This document shows, in pieces, positions 993 to 11,035 of a stretch of 13,493 nt of DNA. Made by a program: the position numbers and the translations under genes. How positions within the stretch are numbered: the first letter of the stretch is position 1; each line of letters opens with the position of its first letter. This DNA comes from a virus (taxonomy: Duplodnaviria; Heunggongvirae; Uroviricota; Caudoviricetes): the IMG/VR virus record IMGVR_UViG_2690316346_000006, positions 1-13,493 of that record, one strand, 5' to 3'. The notes beneath the pieces are model-generated. The model was given only the letters and a program-made list of their open reading frames with translations. It was not told where the DNA came from and made no database searches.

Positions 993-1283
993 TTAACTGT
1001 TTTTGCCTGGATACTGTCTTCGAGAATGCACAATATTTACTACTTCTATGCTTGATGCTGTTACTCGGTAAAGGATGATGTAGTTAGGATGAGTTACAAT
1101 TTCACGAAGACCAAGAACTCGCTCGCTTGGAGGATACAGGTAAGGATGCTCTGTGAGCGGCAAAACGGATGTTTCAATTCGAATTTTCATTCTGCGTGCT
1201 GCCGCGGGATTTTCTTTAGCTATGTAGGCTACGATCTGGCGCAAATCATCACGAGCAGATGGTAGCCATAAAACGGGTAACAT
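993..1283 (-). CDS. parE: type II toxin, ParE/RelE superfamily
   Basis: 96 aa; sequence pattern (LPVLWLPSARDDL ... REIVTHPNYIILYRV ... VVNIVHSRRQYP) is typical of ParE-family toxins. Start overlaps the antitoxin stop (TAATG on the minus strand). Confidence 0.75.
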   Translation of the reverse strand: MLPVLWLPSARDDLRQIVAYIAKENPAAARRMKIRIETSVLPLTEHPYLYPPSERVLGLREIVTHPNYIILYRVTASSIEVVNIVHSRRQYPGKNS

Positions 1284-2794: not shown

Positions 2795-2865
2795 CTGACA
2801 ATAGCCATATCGAATCGCTCCCGGCAACTCGTGAGTAAAAAGATTCGGTATCAGAAGAGGTGAGT

Positions 2866-3930
2866 ATGGCTAACGCCTGGCTCAGATTATGGCATGACAT
2901 GCCAAATGACCCTAAGTGGCGAACAATTGCCAGGGTGTCAGGGCAGCCAATTGCAACAGTGATGGCAGTGTATATCCACCTCCTGGTGAGCGCGTCACGA
3001 AATGTCACGCGAGGTCACATTGATGTCACGACAGAAGATTTGGCAAGTGCGCTCGACGTGACAGAAGAGGTAATTGATTCAATTTTGCAGACGATGCAGG
3101 GGCGGGTACTTGATGGTGATTTAATCACTGGATGGGAAAAACGCCAGGTGCTTAAAGAGGACAACGGCAATATTTCGCAAACCGCAAAATCTCCTGCAGA
3201 GCGCAAGAGGGCGCAGCGAGAGAGGGAAAGAAAGCGGGAACAAAATGGCGATTGTCACGGCGCGTCACGAAATGTCACGCACATGTCACGACGAGTCACG
3301 ACAGATACAGATAAAGATACAGATAAAGAAGATCAAAACACTATGGTCCATGGCGTAAAAAACGCCACGAACCAGGCAGGGGATGTTCAGACCGTCAATC
3401 CTGGTCAGCCAGCAGGCTCGACACCGGAAGCCGATTCAGCGTATGCGCTGAAAGCCGATTCGGGCGCTGTGCAGCAGGTGATGACCGCAAGGCCGGAGCA
3501 ATCACTCCAACTGCAGCAGCCTGAAGCCGATTCCGCCATTCAGCGGGAAGCCGATCGGGTAGCCCCGGAAAACACCGGGCAGCCTGTGGGACGAGTGGAT
3601 TATCCGGATGTGTTCGAACAGGTCTGGCGGGAATACCCGTTGCGTGCCGGGGCAAACCCGAAGAAATCCGCATTCAGTGCCTGGAAGGCCAGATTGCGCG
3701 AGGGGGTGCCACCAGAGACCATGCTGGATGGTGTGAGGCGTTACGCGAGATACCTGGCGGCGACCGGGAAAGCGGGAACGGAATTTGTTCAGCGAGCGAC
3801 GACGTTTTTTGGGCCGGACCGGAATTTTGAAAACCCCTGGTTGCTCCCGGTAAGCGGCACGAACAACCAGCGTTGTGTGAATCATATTTCTGAACCGGAT
3901 ACCGAAATTCCGCCGGGATTCAGGGGGTGA
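2866..3930 (+). CDS. phage replication initiator 1 (O-like / YdaU-like), with origin iterons embedded in the coding sequence
   Basis: ATG at 2866 preceded by GAGGTG (track start GTG 2860). Lies immediately upstream of a DnaC-like gene. Contains two clusters of GTCACG direct repeats. C-terminus ends IPPGFRG, as in the second initiator. Confidence 0.7.
   Translation: MANAWLRLWHDMPNDPKWRTIARVSGQPIATVMAVYIHLLVSASRNVTRGHIDVTTEDLASALDVTEEVIDSILQTMQGRVLDGDLITGWEKRQVLKEDNGNISQTAKSPAERKRAQRERERKREQNGDCHGASRNVTHMSRRVTTDTDKDTDKEDQNTMVHGVKNATNQAGDVQTVNPGQPAGSTPEADSAYALKADSGAVQQVMTARPEQSLQLQQPEADSAIQREADRVAPENTGQPVGRVDYPDVFEQVWREYPLRAGANPKKSAFSAWKARLREGVPPETMLDGVRRYARYLAATGKAGTEFVQRATTFFGPDRNFENPWLLPVSGTNNQRCVNHISEPDTEIPPGFRG
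2993..3030 (+). repeat. iteron cluster 1 of putative origin 1: four GTCACG/GTCAC repeats at 10-11 bp spacing
   Basis: Repeats begin at 2993, 3003, 3014 and 3025, read directly from the sequence. Confidence 0.6.
3254..3300 (+). repeat. iteron cluster 2 of putative origin 1: five GTCACG repeats at 10-11 bp spacing, followed by an ACAGATA-rich AT-rich stretch
   Basis: Repeats begin at 3254, 3264, 3274, 3285 and 3295. The roughly 45-bp unit is near-identical to cluster 1. Confidence 0.6.
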
Positions 3931-3936
3931 TGTGGC

Positions 3937-4683
3937 ATGAAAAACATTGCGGCAGCCGGGGTTCTTGAACGTATTCACAGACTTGCACCACAGGGGGCGG
4001 TTCCACCGTACCGGACGGTGGAGGAGTGGCGGGAATGGCAACTTGCTGAAGGACGAAAACGCAGCGAGGAGATTAACCGCCAGAATCGCCAGTTGCGGGT
4101 GGAAAAAATCCTGAATCGTTCGGGCATCCAGCCTCTGCACAGCAAATGCTCGTTTGCGAATTATCAGGTGCAGAACGACGGGCAAAAATACGCGCTGAGC
4201 CAGGCCAAATCCATAGCTGACGAACTGATGACCGGGTGCACGAATTTTGTGTTCAGCGGTAAAACCGGCACCGGGAAAAATCACCTTGCAGCGGCGATGG
4301 GTAACCGGCTGATGGCGAAGGGGCGCAGCGTGATTATCGTCACCGAGTCTGATGTCATGAGCGTGTTGCATGACAGCTACGACAACGGCAAATCCGGTGA
4401 AAAATTTTTACAGGAGCTTTGCGGGGTTGATTTGCTGGTCCTGGATGAAATAGGCATTCAGCGGGAGACGAAAAACGAGCAGGTGGTATTGCACCAGATA
4501 ATTGATCGCCGGACAGCATCACTGTGCAGTGTCGGGATGTTAACAAACCTGAATCATGCCGCAATGAGCACGCTTCTTGGTGAGAGGATTATGGACCGCA
4601 TGACCATGAACGGTTGTCGGTGGGTGACGTTTAACTGGGATAGCTGGCGTTCAAATGTCAGCTTTCCGGGAGTTGTGAAGTAA
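3937..4683 (+). CDS. DnaC-like helicase loader (YdaV-like), copy 1
   Basis: 248 aa with Walker A-like SGKTGTGKNHLAAA and Walker B-like DLLVLDEIG, as in DnaC. Follows the initiator with 6-bp spacing. Confidence 0.85.
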   Translation: MKNIAAAGVLERIHRLAPQGAVPPYRTVEEWREWQLAEGRKRSEEINRQNRQLRVEKILNRSGIQPLHSKCSFANYQVQNDGQKYALSQAKSIADELMTGCTNFVFSGKTGTGKNHLAAAMGNRLMAKGRSVIIVTESDVMSVLHDSYDNGKSGEKFLQELCGVDLLVLDEIGIQRETKNEQVVLHQIIDRRTASLCSVGMLTNLNHAAMSTLLGERIMDRMTMNGCRWVTFNWDSWRSNVSFPGVVK

Positions 4684-5430: not shown

Positions 5431-5445
5431 TTGCCGGGGGCGCTT

Positions 5446-5868
5446 ATGGCAAAAGTATTTACACAGGAAGAGCGGGAAAAAATTAAGGGGCAGGTTGTTG
5501 AACTCGTACGCCAGAGTGGGCGCGAGACGTTACGACAACTGGAAGCTAAAACCGGGGCGACAAGATATTTAATAAGCGTTCTCGCCAGAGAGCTGGTTGC
5601 CAGTGGGGATGTATACAACTCTGGCTACGGGTTATTCCCGTCTGAACAGGCTCGTAAGGACTGGCAAAACGCCCGCAAAAAACTCTCGAGGGCAAAGCTG
5701 AAGAAACCATCTGTGGTTGATCCGGACCTTATCTGGTCATTACCGGACGGAGAAATACGCCGCTACGACAGACATCAGAACATAATCTGTCGCGAGTGCC
5801 GGAAGAGTGAAGTTATGCAGCGTGTACCGGCTTTCTATCAGGGTGATTTTCAGGAGGCGGTACTGTGA
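5446..5868 (+). CDS. hypothetical protein (about 140 aa), paralog of 9117-9539
   Basis: ATG at 5446 preferred over the listed TTG at 5431. The C-terminal ~90 aa are near-identical to the 9117-9539 product; the N-terminal ~50 aa are diverged. Confidence 0.6.
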   Translation: MAKVFTQEEREKIKGQVVELVRQSGRETLRQLEAKTGATRYLISVLARELVASGDVYNSGYGLFPSEQARKDWQNARKKLSRAKLKKPSVVDPDLIWSLPDGEIRRYDRHQNIICRECRKSEVMQRVPAFYQGDFQEAVL

Positions 5869-6282
5869 GTGAAATTAGCTATCAGGCTTCAATTACCGCT
5901 GGCATTCGCATCAAAGGAGAGGAGCATGGAAATAAAACCAGAAGATGAGTTAAGCAATATTGTTTTATTTCCGGTAAAAGAGGATAACCCTCGTAATCAG
6001 GTTAATTTTCTTTATGAGCCATCGGAAAGACCATATTGCCATCACGCTTCTGTCCGGGTTGACGAAAAAGAGCGTCAGGTCCGCTGTAAAATCTGCGGTG
6101 CGGTTGTGGAGCCGTTTGACTGGATGCTCTCTGTGGCGAAAAGAGAAACCAGACTGGCAGATGATGTAAGGCTCTTGCGCCAGGAGGAGCGGGAAAGGCG
6201 AAAAAATATAGAAAAGCTAATCCAGATTGAGCGTAACGCGAAAGCGCGGATACGCAGGGCGACAAAATCCAGAACTGAATAA
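5869..6282 (+). CDS. hypothetical small protein with a putative zinc-ribbon motif (C-H-H ... C-x2-C); copy A
   Basis: Listed start is GTG at 5869. An internal ATG at 5926 has a strong Shine-Dalgarno (AAGGAGaggagcATG) and gives 118 aa. Motif YCHHASVRVDEKERQVRCKICG. Two further copies lie at 9540-9925 and 10695-11035. Confidence 0.6.
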   Translation: MKLAIRLQLPLAFASKERSMEIKPEDELSNIVLFPVKEDNPRNQVNFLYEPSERPYCHHASVRVDEKERQVRCKICGAVVEPFDWMLSVAKRETRLADDVRLLRQEERERRKNIEKLIQIERNAKARIRRATKSRTE

Positions 6283-6309
6283 TTAAATTTAGCACTGTTA
6301 AAAATTTAA
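6283..6309. repeat. AT-rich palindrome TTAAATTT-N11-AAATTTAA immediately after the stop of the zinc-ribbon gene; repeated at 11036-11062
   Basis: Read directly from the sequence; present after copies A and C, and homology between them ends just beyond it. Confidence 0.4.
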
Positions 6310-6421
6310 TCCTTAATAACCTTTTTATTCTTTGCCACGGGTTCCGTGGCGGGAGATTATGCCGCGTGAACATGAAGATGAGGTGTACTGGCAATAGCGG
6401 ACACTACCATTTGTTCTTTTT

Positions 6422-7240
6422 TTAAGCAGCCATCTGATGATATTTTTCCCTGAAGGCTGCCGGGGAGATATTCCCCAGACGAGAGTGACGACGCTGACGA
6501 TTGTAGAAAATCTCAATGTATTCCCGTATTACTGAGATGGCTTCATCCCGGTTATTAAAACGATAGTGGCTCAGGCTCTCATTTTTCAGCGTTCCCCAGA
6601 AGCTTTCCATCGGAGCGTTGTCGTAACAGTTACCTTTACGCGACATTGATGTTTTCAGACCAGACTGCTCCTGTATGACCCGGTAATCGTATGCGCAGTA
6701 CTGTGAACCTCGATCAGAGTGGTGGATTAGCCCGGCAGGTGGGCGCTGGCTCCTGAGCGCCATAAACAGGGCTTTACCTGTCAGCTCTTTTGTCATGCGC
6801 TCTCCCATGGCGTAGCCGACAATTTCGCACGTATAAACATCTTTGATGCCAGCGAGGTACAACCATCCCTCCTGTGTGGCAACATACGTCAGGTCCGCCA
6901 CCCAGACCTGATTTGGTGCTGTAGGAGCGAACGTCTGGTTCAGCAGATTTGGCGCAACTGGCAGATTGTGGTTCGAGTTCGTAGTCGCTCTGAACTTGCG
7001 TTTCTGCTTACAGCGTAGCCTTAGCTCCTTACGAAGACGTGCCAGTCGGTCACGACCAACGATGATGCCATTCTCTGCCAGCTCCGTCTGGAGCCGCCGG
7101 GTTCCATATGTTTCGCGAGTGCGGATATGTGCCACCTTAATCTCCAGTTTTAGCCGCTCATCACTTTGTTTTCTGTCTGAGGGTTCATGCTGTACCCAGT
7201 TGTAATAACCGCTCCTGGATACACCAAATACCTGACACAT
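6422..7240 (-). CDS. IS3-family transposase OrfB (DDE catalytic part), expressed as an OrfAB fusion by -1 frameshifting
   Basis: 272-aa ORF with DDE-type transposase signatures (HSDRGSQY ... conserved acidic residues) in the -1 frame relative to orfA. Confidence 0.8.
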   Translation of the reverse strand: MCQVFGVSRSGYYNWVQHEPSDRKQSDERLKLEIKVAHIRTRETYGTRRLQTELAENGIIVGRDRLARLRKELRLRCKQKRKFRATTNSNHNLPVAPNLLNQTFAPTAPNQVWVADLTYVATQEGWLYLAGIKDVYTCEIVGYAMGERMTKELTGKALFMALRSQRPPAGLIHHSDRGSQYCAYDYRVIQEQSGLKTSMSRKGNCYDNAPMESFWGTLKNESLSHYRFNNRDEAISVIREYIEIFYNRQRRHSRLGNISPAAFREKYHQMAA

Positions 7241-7275
7241 CGCTTCAATGGGAAATTGTTGTCGCCATTGTTCGA

Positions 7276-7578
7276 TTAACGCGTATTTTTCAGCGACTCC
7301 TGTGCAAAATACGCTGTTGCTTTTTTTAATATATCTCGCTCAAGGCGAGCTTCATTTAACGCCTTACGCAGTTGCAGAATTTCAGATTCCAGTTCAGCCA
7401 CCGTGCGGGAACCAGGAGTACCGAGCCCTTTTCTGGCGGCGGTAACCCATTGTCCTAAAGTGCCTTCAGGAAGAGATAATCGGGAAGCGCCTTCACTGAT
7501 CGAAAGTTGATTTTCAAGAACCGTTCTGACAGCTTCGGCTTTGAACTCTTTAGAGTAACGTTGGGTTTTTCTGCTCAT
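7276..7578 (-). CDS. IS3-family transposase OrfA (HTH part)
   Basis: 100 aa, MSRKTQRYSKEFKAEAVRTV..., which I recognise as IS600/IS3-group OrfA. Confidence 0.8.
   Translation of the reverse strand: MSRKTQRYSKEFKAEAVRTVLENQLSISEGASRLSLPEGTLGQWVTAARKGLGTPGSRTVAELESEILQLRKALNEARLERDILKKATAYFAQESLKNTR
7320..7327 (-). promoter_or_regulatory. programmed -1 ribosomal frameshift site (A AAA AAG) within the orfA/orfB overlap of the IS3-family element
   Basis: Minus-strand sequence TTAAAAAAAGC lies where orfA and orfB overlap, as is typical of IS3-family elements. Confidence 0.6.
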
Positions 7579-7698
7579 TATTAGCTCCTTCTGATGCCAT
7601 TCTATTTCAGGAAGGAGTGTCCGTTAAACTCAGGCTACCTCAGGTTATTCGCTTCTGGGCATGGGCGGATCAACAAATGATAGACGGTAATGCAGATT

Positions 7699-7950
7699 GT
7701 AACGCTCGCGGCGTTACAAAAAGTGCAATAGATCGCATCACTTTTATGTCTGGTTTTGCTGATGCGTTAATTCAGGTTGGATGGCTGGTCGAAAATGACG
7801 GAGGGCTTTCTCTACCTAACTTTGAACGTCATAACGGAAAAAGCTCTAAAAAAAACGGGCGGTTACAAACGAGCGAGTAACAAAAATACGCGAACTGAAA
7901 CGAAAAGGTAACGCTGCCAGCGTTACACAAACGGATCAAAAAGCGTTACC
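7699..7950 (+). repeat. putative origin 2 binding sites: two copies of the palindrome GTAACGC-N5-GCGTTAC (7699-7717, 7908-7926) plus half-sites at 7862-7866 and 7943-7949
   Basis: Read directly from the sequence. Located inside the linker-coding region of initiator 2, analogous to the iterons inside initiator 1 but of a different sequence. Confidence 0.45.
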
Positions 7951-7952
7951 AG

Positions 7953-8000
7953 AGGAAGAGGAAGAGGAAGAGGAAGAGGAAGAGGAAGAGGAAGAGGAAG
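7953..8000 (+). repeat. perfect tandem hexanucleotide repeat (AGGAAG)8; encodes Glu16 in the frame that appears to be coding for the initiator 2 linker
   Basis: 48 bp of uninterrupted AGGAAG units counted directly from the sequence. Confidence 0.9.
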
Positions 8001-8355
8001 ATCTAAATACTGATCTCCCCCTCGCCAAAAACGAGCGTCTAAAAAATTCGAGCCGGAGGCTATTGAGCTGCCCGATTGGTTGCCGGAAACACTCTGGCAT
8101 GAGTGGGTCCGGTTCAGACAGGCATTGCGAAAACCGATTCGAACGGAGCAGGGCGCTAACGGGGCGATACGGGAACTGGAAAAATTCCGTCAGCAGGGTT
8201 TTACACCTGAGCAGGTGATTCGACACAGCATCGCCAATGAATACCAGGGCCTGTTCGCGCCGAAAGGTGTTCGGCCTGAGACGTTGCTCCGACAGGTTAA
8301 CACCGTCTCGTTGCCGGACAGTGCGATCCCGCCAGGCTTCAGGGGGTAACGGACC

Positions 8356-9102
8356 ATGAAAAATATTGCGACAGGCGGCGTTCTGGAACGCATCCGCCGA
8401 CTGACCCCGCCACATGTAACCGCCCCATTCAGAACGGTAGCGGAGTGGCGCGAGTGGCAACTTGCTGAAGGCCAGAAACGTAGCGAGGAGATCAACCGCC
8501 TGAATCGCCAGTTGCGGGTGGAAAAAATTCTGAATCGCTCAGGCATCCAGCCGTTGCACCGTAAATGCTCGTTTGCGAATTACCAGGTGCAGAACGACGG
8601 CCAGCGATACGCGTTAAGCCAGGCGAAATCCATCGCCGATGAACTGATGACCGGGTGTACAAATTTTGCGTTCAGCGGAAAACCTGGTACCGGGAAGAAT
8701 CACTTAGCGGCAGCTATCGGGAATCGCCTGCTGAAAGACGGTCAGACAGTGATTGTGGTTACCGTGGCTGATGTTATGAGCGCCCTGCACGCCAGCTATG
8801 ACGACGGGCAGTCAGGCGAAAAATTTTTGCGGGAGCTGTGCGAAGTGGATCTGCTGGTTCTTGATGAAATTGGCATTCAGCGCGAGACGAAAAACGAGCA
8901 GGTGGTGCTGCACCAGATTGTTGATCGCCGGACAGCGTCGATGCGCAGCGTGGGGATGCTGACAAACCTGAACTATGAGGTGATGAAAACATTGCTCGGC
9001 GAGCGGGTGATGGATCGCATGGTCATGAACGGCGGGCGCTGGGTGAATTTTAACTGGGAGAGCTGGCGTCCGAATGTTAGCCATTCGAGGGTTGTTAAGT
9101 AG
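8356..9102 (+). CDS. DnaC-like helicase loader, copy 2 (roughly 85% amino-acid identity to copy 1 by eye)
   Basis: 248 aa with SGKPGTGKNHLAAA and DLLVLDEIG motifs; same length and architecture as 3937-4683. Confidence 0.85.
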   Translation: MKNIATGGVLERIRRLTPPHVTAPFRTVAEWREWQLAEGQKRSEEINRLNRQLRVEKILNRSGIQPLHRKCSFANYQVQNDGQRYALSQAKSIADELMTGCTNFAFSGKPGTGKNHLAAAIGNRLLKDGQTVIVVTVADVMSALHASYDDGQSGEKFLRELCEVDLLVLDEIGIQRETKNEQVVLHQIVDRRTASMRSVGMLTNLNYEVMKTLLGERVMDRMVMNGGRWVNFNWESWRPNVSHSRVVK

Positions 9103-9539: not shown

Positions 9540-10007
9540 ATGAAATTAGCTATCAGGCTTCAATTACCGCTGGCATTCGCATCAAAGGAGAGGAGCATGG
9601 AAATAAAACCAGAAGATGAGTTAAGCAATATTGTTTTATTTCCGGTAAAAGAGGATAACCCACGTAATCAGGTTAATTTTCTTTATGAACCATCGGAAAG
9701 ACCATATTGCCATCACGCCTCTGTCCGGGTTGACGAAAAAGAGCGTCAGGTCCGCTGTAAAATTTGCGGTGCAGTTGTGGAGCCATTTGACTGGATGCTC
9801 TCTGTGGCGAAAAGAGAAACCAGACTGGCAGATGATGTAAGGCTATTGCGCCAGGAGGAACAGGAAAGGCGGAGAAATATAGAAAAGCTGATACAGATTG
9901 AGCGTAACGCGAAAGCGCGGATACGCGGTAATGACTCCAACTTATTGATAGTGTTTTATGTTCAGATAATGCCCGATGACTTTGTCATGCAGCTCCACCG
10001 ATTTTGA
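9540..10007 (+). pseudogene. zinc-ribbon small gene copy B, 3'-truncated at 9925 by IS1; the ORF reads on into IS1, giving a chimeric 26-aa tail
   Basis: Homology to copy A ends exactly at the IS1 end (...gcgcggatacgc|ggtaatgac). Translation continues ...ARIR then [26 protein letters not shown] from the IS1 sequence. Confidence 0.7.
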
Positions 10008-10445
10008 GAACGACAGCGACTTCCGTCCCAGCCGTGCCAGGTGCTGCCTCAGATTCAGGTTATGCCGCTCAATTCGCTGCGTATATCGCTTGCTGATTAC
10101 GTGCAGCTTTCCCTTCAGGCGGGATTCATACAGCGGCCAGCCATCCGTCATCCATATCACCACGTCAAAGGGTGACAGCAGGCTCATAAGACGCCCCAGC
10201 GTCGCCATAGTGCGTTCACCGAATACGTGCGCAACAACCGTCTTCCGGAGACTGTCATACGCGTAAAACAGCCAGCGCTGGCGCGATTTAGCCCCGACAT
10301 AGCCCCACTGTTCGTCCATTTCCGCGCAGACGATGACGTCACTGCCCGGCTGTATGCGCGAGGTTACCGACTGCGGCCTGAGTTTTTTAAGTGACGTAAA
10401 ATCGTGTTGAGGCCAACGCCCATAATGCGTGCAGTTGCCCGGCAT
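9942..10445 (-). CDS. insB: IS1 InsB (expressed as an InsAB' fusion by frameshifting)
   Basis: 167 aa, ...[62 protein letters not shown]..., recognised as IS1 InsB. Confidence 0.9.
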
Positions 10446-10639
10446 CCAACGCCATTCATGGCCATATCAATGATTTTCTGGTGCGTACCGGGTTGAGAAG
10501 CGGTGTAAGTGAACTGCAGTTGCCATGTTTTACGGCAGTGAGAGCAGAGATAGCGCTGATGTCCGGCAGTGCTTTTGCCGTTACGCACCACCCCGTCAGT
10601 AGCTGAACAGGAGGGACAGCTGATAGAAACAGAAGCCAC
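10364..10639 (-). CDS. insA: IS1 InsA
   Basis: 91 aa, [42 protein letters not shown]..., recognised as IS1 InsA. Confidence 0.9.
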
Positions 10640-10694
10640 TGGAGCACCTCAAAAACACCATCATACACTAAATCAGTAAGTTGGCAGCATCACC

Positions 10695-11035
10695 AAGATG
10701 AGTTAAGCAATATCGTTTTATTTCCGGTAAAAGAGGATGACCCTCGTAATCAGGTTAATTTTCTTTATGAGCCATCGGAAAGACCATATTGCCATCACGC
10801 CTCTGTACGGGTTGACGAAAAAGAGCGTCAGGTCCGCTGTAAAATCTGCGGTGCGGTTGTGGAGCCGTTTGACTGGATGCTCTCTGTGGCAAAAAGAGAA
10901 ACCAGACTGGCAGATGATGTAAGGCTATTGCGCCAGGAGGAACAGGAAAGGCGGAGAAATATAGAAAAGCTGATACAGATTGAGCGTAACGCGAAAGCGC
11001 GGATACGCAGGGCGACAAAATCCAGAACTGAATAA
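10695..11035 (+). pseudogene. zinc-ribbon small gene copy C, 5'-truncated (lacks the first ~5 codons); mosaic of copies A and B
   Basis: Begins abruptly at the IS1 end with aagatgagttaagc..., matching codon 6 onward of copy A. Its 5' half carries copy-A-type variants and its 3' half copy-B-type variants. Stop at 11033-11035. Confidence 0.65.

What the first reader, a model, noticed from the sequence alone, without database searches (positions are those of the whole stretch)
7953..8000. Perfect (AGGAAG)8 hexanucleotide repeat encoding a Glu16 tract inside the initiator 2 linker
Eight perfect hexamer units is a classic slipped-strand-prone simple repeat. Changes in unit number keep the frame but alter linker length between the DNA-binding N-terminus and the loader-interacting C-terminus. 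On the DNA level it is a 48-bp pure purine/pyrimidine tract next to the putative origin 2 sites, so it could also affect unwinding. The equivalent linker in initiator 1 instead uses an ACAGATA-type repeat encoding TDKDTDKED, so both initiators carry low-complexity repeat linkers of different sequence.
Basis: seen in the sequence. Interest (0 to 1): 0.55.

Follow-up and report, generated by a model that had tools for sequence, protein, structure and literature searches.

The report
Known VNTR in a dead prophage gene
The perfect (AGGAAG)8 repeat is real, but it sits in a broken copy of a prophage replication-initiator gene (ydaU) in Shigella sonnei and almost certainly is the variable-number repeat already used as strain-typing marker SS10, so it is an ordinary, known slippage-prone repeat.

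Summary
Observation confirmed: window 7953-8000 is a perfect (AGGAAG)8. The perfect period-6, all-purine run is 7951-8001 (51 nt); shuffled sequence gives at most 15 nt.

Interpretation partly right. The tract lies in a YdaU-family (Rac-prophage type) replication-initiator gene upstream of the DnaC-like loader gene ydaV. In the ancestral frame it encodes poly-Glu, inside a predicted disordered interdomain linker. A poly-Glu tract after the motif DQKALP is conserved in relatives from many enterobacterial genera.

In this window the gene is dead. IS600 replaces its first ~103 nt, an A6->A8 run shifts the frame, and a 10-nt deletion shifts it again. The Glu frame has no start codon, so no Glu16 initiator is made here.

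Copy number does vary:
- 3, 4, 6, 7 and 8 units in S. sonnei-type loci that share the same lesions.
- 2-5 units in almost all of 679 E. coli complete genomes, most with 3.

The published forward primer of S. sonnei MLVA locus SS10 (6-bp unit, 2-10 repeats in 1,672 isolates) lies 135 nt upstream. The variation is therefore already known and in use.

H-DNA is unlikely because the tract is not a mirror repeat.

Side result: conserved GTAACGC-N5-GCGTTAC palindromes abut the tract and look like an origin inside the gene.

The parts
7953..8000 (+). (AGGAAG)8 hexanucleotide repeat. The perfect period-6, all-purine run is 7951-8001. In the ancestral ydaU frame it reads (GAG GAA)8 = Glu16.
7642..8349 (+). 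Remnant of a YdaU-family phage replication-initiator gene (pseudogene). It corresponds to about nt 104-789 of the intact 789-nt gene and is now split over three frames.
   Evidence: Alignment to intact genes in L002, L003 and L005; three-frame translations; PHROG phrog_2509 'replication initiation protein', E=3.9e-89, for the intact homologue
6379..7641 (-). IS600 (IS3 family; orfA 7276-7578, orfB 6422-7240), inserted in ydaU. It removes the first ~103 nt of the gene and the upstream palindrome from this copy.
   Evidence: (annotated IS600)
7848..7855 (+). A8 homopolymer run. Intact genes have A6, so this is a +2 frameshift. S. sonnei 53G has A9.
8016..8022 (+). Scar of a 10-nt deletion. The window has a single TCCCCCT where intact genes have TCCCCCTAAATCCCCCT. 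This is the second frameshift.
7699..7717 (.). Palindrome GTAACGC-TCGCG-GCGTTAC, a conserved candidate initiator-binding site (gene position about +160).
7908..7926 (.). Palindrome GTAACGC-TGCCA-GCGTTAC, a conserved candidate initiator-binding site 24 nt upstream of the repeat.
7943..7949 (+). Half-site GCGTTAC. It is part of the codons GCG TTA CCA (A-L-P), and one base (7950) separates it from the purine tract.
7798..7817 (+). Annealing site of the published forward primer of S. sonnei MLVA locus SS10 (ACGGTGGGCTTTCTCTACCT). One mismatch here; exact in S. sonnei 53G.
8356..9102 (+). ydaV, an intact DnaC-like helicase-loader gene (NCBIfam PRK12377, 510 bits) directly downstream.
3253..3329 (+). 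Comparison element in initiator 1 (2860-3930): five GTCACG iterons, then an ACAGAT(A) purine-rich repeat encoding TDTDKDTDKED.

Best explanation
The tract is a coding-region microsatellite that changes length by replication slippage in whole 6-nt units.

It arose in the YdaU family of Rac-type prophage replication initiators. There (GAG GAA)n encodes a short poly-Glu patch (normally E4-E10) in the disordered linker between an N-terminal domain and a DnaT-like C-terminal domain. The N-terminal domain is probably a winged-helix origin-binding domain.

In this window, from a Shigella sonnei-type genome, the gene has been inactivated three times: by an IS600 insertion, a +2 shift in an A-run, and a 10-nt deletion. 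The tract no longer encodes part of a working protein and drifts in length as a neutral VNTR. The 8-unit allele here is one state of the locus that S. sonnei MLVA typing schemes call SS10.

Shown: the repeat, the pseudogene lesions, copy-number polymorphism among sister loci, conservation of the poly-Glu in homologues, and the primer match.

Inferred: slippage as the mutational mechanism, relaxed constraint as the reason for longer alleles, and the domain functions.
For: - Repeat and frames.
- Gene identity and lesions: intact 262-aa homologues read ...DQKALPEEEEEEDLNTDLPLNPPRQKRASKK.... The alignment shows the window's A6->A8 change, the 10-nt deletion and the 5' replacement. The IS600 junction is identical to that in L012, where the insertion is flanked by a short direct repeat of target sequence (AGGTT on both sides).
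- Organism: the 87-aa junction ORF product (7617-7880) is an exact match to 'putative bacteriophage protein [Shigella sonnei]', seen on 492 contigs.
- Polymorphism: nine sequences that share the 10-nt deletion scar and an expanded A-run (A8; A9 in 53G) carry 3, 3, 3, 3, 4, 6, 6, 7 and 8 perfect units. Among 679 E. coli complete genomes, one has 8 units (a frameshifted copy), two have 5, about 40 have 4, at least 7 have 2, and most of the rest have 3; about 55 align only through the left flank and part of the repeat and were not fully scored.
- SS10: the forward primer from PMC3420240 Table 1 hits 7798-7817 with 1 mismatch and is exact in HE616528.1. SS10 has a 6-bp unit, 9 alleles and 2-10 repeats (PMC3310650 Table). 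This is the only period-6 array near the primer.
- Linker: AlphaFold2 gives pLDDT<50 for residues 97-159, which contain the poly-Glu at 138-143. Folded blocks are 11-96 and 160-235. The 114-aa insert in 376-aa variants starts right after the poly-Glu.
- Family-wide poly-Glu.
Against: - The SS10 assignment rests on the forward primer, unit size and allele range only. The original paper (Liang et al. 2007) and the reverse primer were not available.
- 'Relaxed constraint' rests on small numbers. The one 8-unit E. coli allele is in a frameshifted copy, but alleles of 6 or more units could also reflect the higher slippage rate of longer arrays.
- In S. sonnei 53G the tract is still translated as E14 within a 224-aa truncated product, so some lineages may express a poly-Glu-bearing fragment.
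- A DNA-level role next to the conserved binding sites is not excluded.
Confidence: 0.88

Rival explanations
1. The tract is a working poly-Glu linker of a live initiator, and unit changes tune the distance between the DNA-binding and loader-binding domains, and hence replication.
For: In intact family members the poly-Glu lies in a disordered linker. It is conserved across genera. Intact proteins tolerate E4-E10.
Against: In this window the gene lacks its 5' end and is split over three frames. No ORF with a start codon contains the Glu frame. Intact genes cluster tightly at 3 units, which suggests a preferred length and not a tuning device.
Confidence: 0.07
2. The tract acts at the DNA level as part of a prophage origin, as an unwinding element, a spacer or an H-DNA/triplex former next to initiator-binding sites. 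Its length would then affect origin firing.
For: It lies one base downstream of a conserved GCGTTAC half-site and 24 nt downstream of a conserved GTAACGC-N5-GCGTTAC palindrome. These sites are kept at fixed positions in at least 10 genera, including one copy in non-coding DNA upstream of the gene. The GAG/GAA alternation is kept in several genera. Lambda ori has iterons followed by an A/T-rich, strand-biased tract inside the O gene (established knowledge). Initiator 1 shows iterons followed by a purine-rich repeat.
Against: The tract is not a mirror repeat (best mirror identity 69%), so H-DNA formation is poor. GC content is about 47%, not lower than the flanks, so it is not a classical AT-rich unwinding element. 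Every poly-Glu is all-purine by the genetic code, so the purine run needs no DNA-level explanation. Slippage alone propagates the GAG-GAA alternation. In this window the initiator is dead and the upstream palindrome is lost.
Confidence: 0.04
3. The frameshifts are homopolymer sequencing errors and the gene is really intact, or the repeat belongs to the antisense ORF 7936-8460, which would encode poly-Ser.
For: Both frameshifts lie at or next to homopolymer runs. An antisense 174-aa ORF with a Ser16 run exists in the window.
Against: The same 10-nt deletion and an expanded A-run recur in eight further independent assemblies. The deletion is 10 nt between direct repeats, not a homopolymer miscount. 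The IS600 truncation stands regardless. In an intact homologue the antisense ORF stops before the repeat (L003 2348-2797), so the poly-Ser fusion is a by-product of the deletion.
Confidence: 0.01

Closest known systems
Shigella sonnei MLVA locus SS10 (Liang et al. 2007 scheme; data in PMC3310650 and PMC3420240)
   Same: 6-bp unit; forward primer anneals 135 nt upstream; published allele range of 2-10 repeats covers the 3-8 units seen here; same species context.
   Different: Nothing found that differs. The reverse primer and genome coordinates could not be checked because the original paper is not held.
Lambda-type replication module: O initiator with ori inside the O gene, followed by the loader gene (P or DnaC-like)
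   Same: Initiator gene directly upstream of a helicase-loader gene. Repeated initiator-binding sites lie inside the initiator coding region, at the part encoding the interdomain linker, and are followed by a strand-biased low-complexity tract. The protein has an N-terminal domain, a flexible linker and a C-terminal domain.
   Different: There is no detectable sequence relationship to lambda O; the closest label is PHROG 'O-like', for the C-terminal half only. The sites are three dispersed 19-bp palindromes plus half-sites, not four tandem iterons. The tract is 50% G+C poly-Glu codons, not an A/T-rich block. Origin function is untested.
In-frame coding microsatellites used as VNTR markers in E. 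coli and Shigella (for example the 6-bp CVN loci of the generic E. coli MLVA)
   Same: Short perfect tandem units whose length is a multiple of three, so length changes preserve the frame. Variation occurs by whole units among close relatives.
   Different: None of the CVN014-CVN017 primers match the window, so this is not one of those loci.
Phase-variable contingency loci (simple-sequence repeats that switch genes on and off)
   Same: A slippage-prone simple repeat inside a coding region.
   Different: A 6-nt unit cannot shift the frame, and the gene is already inactivated by other lesions, so there is no on/off switching.

Membership tests
VNTR / microsatellite evolving by slipped-strand mispairing | Perfect head-to-tail tandem copies of a short unit | tested here: met
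   TRF: 8.5 copies, 100% matches; direct reading
VNTR / microsatellite evolving by slipped-strand mispairing | Copy number differs among close relatives by whole units while the flanks stay the same | tested here: met
   3, 4, 6, 7 and 8 units in loci that share the same flanks and the same pseudogene lesions; 2-5 and 8 units in E. coli
S. sonnei MLVA locus SS10 | Published forward primer anneals next to the array | tested here: met
   ACGGTGGGCTTTCTCTACCT hits 7798-7817 with 1 mismatch and is exact in S. sonnei 53G (L009)
S. sonnei MLVA locus SS10 | 6-bp unit and allele range of 2-10 repeats | tested here: met
   PMC3310650 Table against 3-8 units observed; it is the only period-6 array near the primer
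S. sonnei MLVA locus SS10 | Reverse primer and published genome coordinates | not testable with these tools
   Liang 2007 and Chiou 2009 are not held; the held papers list forward primers only
YdaU-family phage replication initiator (functional gene) | Sequence homology to YdaU | tested here: met
   91-97% DNA identity over 7642-8400 to ydaU/ydaV of Rac-type prophages
YdaU-family phage replication initiator (functional gene) | Uninterrupted full-length ORF (about 262 aa) | tested here: not met
   5' end replaced by IS600, plus two frameshifts
Phase-variable contingency locus | Unit changes shift the reading frame or promoter spacing of a functional gene | tested here: not met
   The unit is 6 nt, so changes are frame-neutral; the gene is already dead
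H-DNA / intramolecular triplex-forming tract | Homopurine-homopyrimidine run | tested here: met
   51-nt purine-only run
H-DNA / intramolecular triplex-forming tract | Mirror-repeat symmetry | tested here: not met
   Best mirror identity 0.69; no rotation of AAGGAG equals GAGGAA
Origin DNA-unwinding element | A/T-rich, low-stability segment next to initiator sites | tested here: not met
   GC 0.467 in 60-nt windows over the tract, equal to or above the flanks. Adjacency to conserved sites is met. Unwinding itself cannot be tested here.

The most novel reading that the evidence does not exclude
In live YdaU-type phages the (GAGGAA)n tract could be a dual-use module. It would be a fixed component of a conserved origin built from GTAACGC-N5-GCGTTAC sites inside the initiator gene (possibly the uncharacterised oriJ type of Rac). 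At the same time it would be the acidic hinge of the initiator. Slippage would then change origin geometry and linker length together and tune prophage replication.
Probability: 0.1. Interest if true: 0.45.

Novelty: already known. Interest (0 to 1): 0.17.

Why it matters
For the finding as stated, little. It is a documented typing VNTR in a decayed prophage gene, and it is useful mainly as a worked example that a 'repeat in an initiator linker' can sit in a pseudogene.

The by-product may matter more. YdaU-type initiators have no Pfam or NCBIfam model and no held paper characterises them. They carry three perfectly conserved 19-bp palindromes at fixed positions in and just upstream of their own gene across at least 10 enterobacterial genera, directly abutting the poly-Glu codons. 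This gives a concrete, testable map of a candidate Rac-type (oriJ-like) origin.

Tried and rejected
- Pfam and NCBIfam scans of intact YdaU and of initiator 1 gave no family. Only PHROGs labels them as replication initiators.
- A sequence search of the PDB gave only marginal DnaT C-terminal hits, E 0.16-0.5.
- A Foldseek search of the AlphaFold2 model against the PDB gave no hit below E=0.38. The top hits were mostly winged-helix regulators plus plasmid Rep initiators, so the 'winged-helix N-domain' reading is only suggestive.
- The original MLVA papers (PMC2168494, PMC2668296) are not held. The S. flexneri MLVA paper contains none of the hexamer strings. Another S. sonnei MLVA paper uses a different locus set.
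- Primers of the 6-bp CVN014-CVN017 loci of the generic E. coli MLVA do not match the window. CVN014 overlaps SS9, not this locus.
- Literature searches for ydaU, oriJ and the Rac initiator found no functional or structural study.
- The antisense poly-Ser ORF was rejected.
- Sequencing error as the source of the frameshifts was rejected.
- The GTDB genome scan could not name the source strain, but it supplied distant homologues.

Full report
**1. The observation**

Window 7953-8000 reads (AGGAAG)8 without a single deviation. Tandem Repeats Finder reports one array at 7951-8001, period 6, 8.5 copies, 100% matches. The perfect tract is AG(AGGAAG)8A, 51 nt.

It is also the longest purine-only run in the window; the next is 17 nt. 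In 200 shuffles the longest period-6 run never exceeded 15 nt. The repeat is real and not a chance feature.

**2. The tract is in a broken gene**

Only one of the three forward frames reads the tract as Glu16. The other two give (RG)n and (KR)n. No ORF with a start codon contains the Glu frame.

DNA searches show that 7642-8400 is 91-97% identical to ydaU-ydaV of Rac-type prophages of E. coli. Window 7400-7646 is a multi-copy element. Alignment with intact genes (L002, phage Rac from strain 442/2; L003, E. coli COL60J, annotated 'phage replication initiator YdaU family protein') shows three lesions in the window:
- The first ~103 nt of the gene are replaced.
- An A6 run has become A8 (7848-7855).
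- 10 nt are missing between two TCCCCCT direct repeats (scar at 8016-8022).

The replacing element is IS600, of the IS3 family. Its orfA and orfB lie on the minus strand, and the element spans 6379-7641. Its right junction with ydaU is identical to the junction in sister loci where IS600 is a simple insertion, flanked by a short direct repeat of target sequence (AGGTT on both sides).

The antisense ORF 7936-8460 reads the tract as poly-Ser. It is a by-product of the 10-nt deletion, because in an intact homologue the antisense ORF stops before the repeat.

**3. Source organism**

The 87-aa product of the junction ORF 7617-7880 matches exactly a 'putative bacteriophage protein [Shigella sonnei]' found on 492 contigs. 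Contigs encoding the window's exact YdaV include HE616528.1, which I know as S. sonnei 53G.

The window is a prophage- and IS-rich S. sonnei-type region. It contains a complete Rac-like early and replication module (initiator 1 at 2860-3930, DnaC-like gene at 3937-4683), then IS600, then the truncated ydaU, ydaV and later genes. An IS1 lies further on.

**4. Copy number varies, and this is already known**

Nine sequences share the 10-nt deletion scar and an expanded A-run (A8; A9 in 53G). They carry 3, 3, 3, 3, 4, 6, 6, 7 and 8 perfect units. This is whole-unit variation inside one clonal lineage, on identical flanks.

In the 679 E. coli complete genomes that hold this ydaU type, the distribution is narrow:

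| Units | Genomes |
|---|---|
| 8 | 1 (2013C-4974, a copy annotated 'frameshifted') |
| 5 | 2 |
| 4 | about 40 |
| 2 | at least 7 |
| 3 | most of the rest (about 55 genomes align only through the left flank and part of the repeat and were not fully scored) |

The forward primer published for locus SS10 of the S. sonnei MLVA scheme (PMC3420240, Table 1) anneals at 7798-7817 with one mismatch. It matches exactly in 53G, 135 nt upstream of the array. SS10 is listed with a 6-bp unit, 9 alleles and 2-10 repeats among 1,672 isolates (PMC3310650 Table). No other period-6 array lies near the primer.

I therefore identify the tract as SS10. The caveat is that the reverse primer and the original paper were not available.

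**5. What the tract is in working genes**

Intact YdaU proteins read ...DQKALP-EEEEEE-DLNTDLPLNPPRQKRASKK.... Among the 120 best representatives of 1,203 database relatives, an acidic run follows the invariant L-P in Escherichia, Shigella, Salmonella, Citrobacter, Klebsiella, Enterobacter, Serratia and Yersinia. It is usually E5-E9, and in E. coli E4, E6, E8 or E10, which are steps of one hexamer.

An AlphaFold2 model built on 18 homologues has two confident blocks, residues 11-96 and 160-235. Residues 97-159 have pLDDT<50, and this segment contains the poly-Glu at 138-143. The 376-aa variants are the same protein with a ~114-aa insert that begins right after the poly-Glu.

Domain functions are inferred only:
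- PHROGs labels the family 'replication initiation protein', and its C-terminal half 'primosomal protein' or 'O-like'.
- The PDB sequence search gives marginal DnaT C-terminal hits.
- Fold hits to winged-helix proteins and plasmid Rep initiators are not significant.
- Initiator 1 and YdaU are otherwise unrelated but share the tail PDxxIPPGFRG. Each precedes a DnaC-like gene, and the two loaders are 81% identical. This is consistent with the tail contacting the loader.

**6. The neighbouring 'origin sites'**

GCGTTAC occurs 10 times in the window against about 1 expected, and five of the ten lie in the ydaU remnant. They form two 19-bp palindromes, GTAACGC-N5-GCGTTAC (7699-7717 and 7908-7926), and a half-site at 7943-7949. 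One base (7950) separates the half-site from the purine tract.

In intact genes a third palindrome lies about 32-44 nt upstream of the start codon. The set is kept at about -40, about +160 and +357 to +412, with invariant arms and a free central pentamer. It is present in homologues from Escherichia/Shigella, Mixta, Erwinia, Yersinia, Serratia, Winslowiella, Rouxiella, Samsonia, Rahnella, Pantoea and Pectobacterium, although their proteins are only 42-97% identical; a few of these loci show only the two in-gene palindromes.

This is conservation at the DNA level. It resembles lambda, where ori lies inside the O gene in the stretch encoding the interdomain hinge (established knowledge). Initiator 1 shows the same layout: five GTCACG iterons followed by a purine-rich ACAGAT(A) repeat encoding TDTDKDTDKED.

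A DNA-level role for the tract itself remains unsupported:
- It is not a mirror repeat (best mirror identity 69%).
- It is not A/T-rich (GC about 0.47).
- Every poly-Glu is all-purine by the genetic code.
- Slippage alone would propagate the GAG-GAA alternation seen in several genera.

**7. Mechanism and verdict**

The best explanation (confidence 0.88) is an in-frame hexanucleotide microsatellite. It originated as the poly-Glu hinge of a phage replication initiator. Here it lies in an inactivated copy and drifts in length by replication slippage.

The longer alleles (6-8 units here, up to 10 in MLVA data) are seen in the inactivated S. sonnei copies and in the one frameshifted E. coli copy. 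Intact genes stay at 2-5 units. This fits relaxed constraint, but the numbers are small and longer arrays also slip more often.

In S. sonnei 53G the A-run is A9, so the N-domain and E14 are still in frame. The product is a 224-aa protein that lacks the C-domain.

Nothing here is new as a kind of feature, and the polymorphism is already exploited for typing. Interest is low. The conserved palindrome set is the only element worth following up.

Noticed in passing
window 7699-7717, 7908-7926, 7943-7949; L003 1862-1885, 2054-2077, 2261-2284; L014-L030: The 19-bp palindrome GTAACGC-N5-GCGTTAC is conserved at three fixed positions (about -40, about +160 and +357 to +412 relative to the ydaU start), plus a GCGTTAC half-site that abuts the poly-Glu codons. 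It is found in homologues from at least 10 enterobacterial genera, with a variable central pentamer; a few loci show only the two in-gene copies. This is a candidate origin (oriJ type?) or autoregulatory site set inside the initiator gene. The arms force the peptide motif N-A-x-x-V-T to occur twice in the protein.
   Followed up: partly
window 9927-10694, flanked by 9613-9912 and 10695-10994: An IS1 element (InsA 10364-10639, InsB 9942-10445, minus strand) is flanked by a 300-nt direct duplication at 97% identity, not the usual short target duplication. Sister loci (for example L012) have a single copy of this 300 nt and no IS1.
   Followed up: partly
window 6283-6378 / 6379 (left IS600 junction) versus L012 930-1036: In sister S. 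sonnei loci IS600 is a simple insertion in ydaU, with the 5' end of ydaU on its left. In the window the left flank is the end of a different Rac-like module (DUF977 and zinc-ribbon genes, 5431-6282). This implies an IS600-mediated rearrangement that joined two prophage replication modules.
   Followed up: partly
window 2860-3930 and 7642-8349 (C-termini 3898-3927 and 8317-8346): Two otherwise unrelated initiators end in the same tail, PD(T/S)xIPPGFRG. Each precedes a DnaC-like loader gene, and the two loaders are 81% identical. The tail is a likely loader-docking peptide.
   Followed up: partly
P0011-P0058, P0065 (376-380 aa YdaU variants); alignment A2 columns ~170-305: Many E. coli and Salmonella YdaU proteins carry a ~114-aa insert immediately after the poly-Glu (…CREYPVPERGDGCGGRIDIVVTDRNGVRCGIELDR…). 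It looks like a small nuclease-like domain inserted in the linker. Its function is unknown and it has no Pfam hit.
   Followed up: no
window 7848-7855; L009 (S. sonnei 53G): The A-run upstream of the repeat is itself length-variable: A6 in intact genes, A8 in most S. sonnei loci, A9 in 53G. In 53G this restores the frame, so an N-domain plus E14 product of 224 aa is predicted.
   Followed up: yes
window 7877-7881: A T->A substitution turns a conserved GTTAC half-site into GTAAC. It also creates the TAA that ends the 87-aa junction ORF.
   Followed up: no
window 993-1283 (-): A ParE-family toxin gene lies next to the repressor-like HTH gene (1497-2027) at the left end of the first prophage module.
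   Followed up: no
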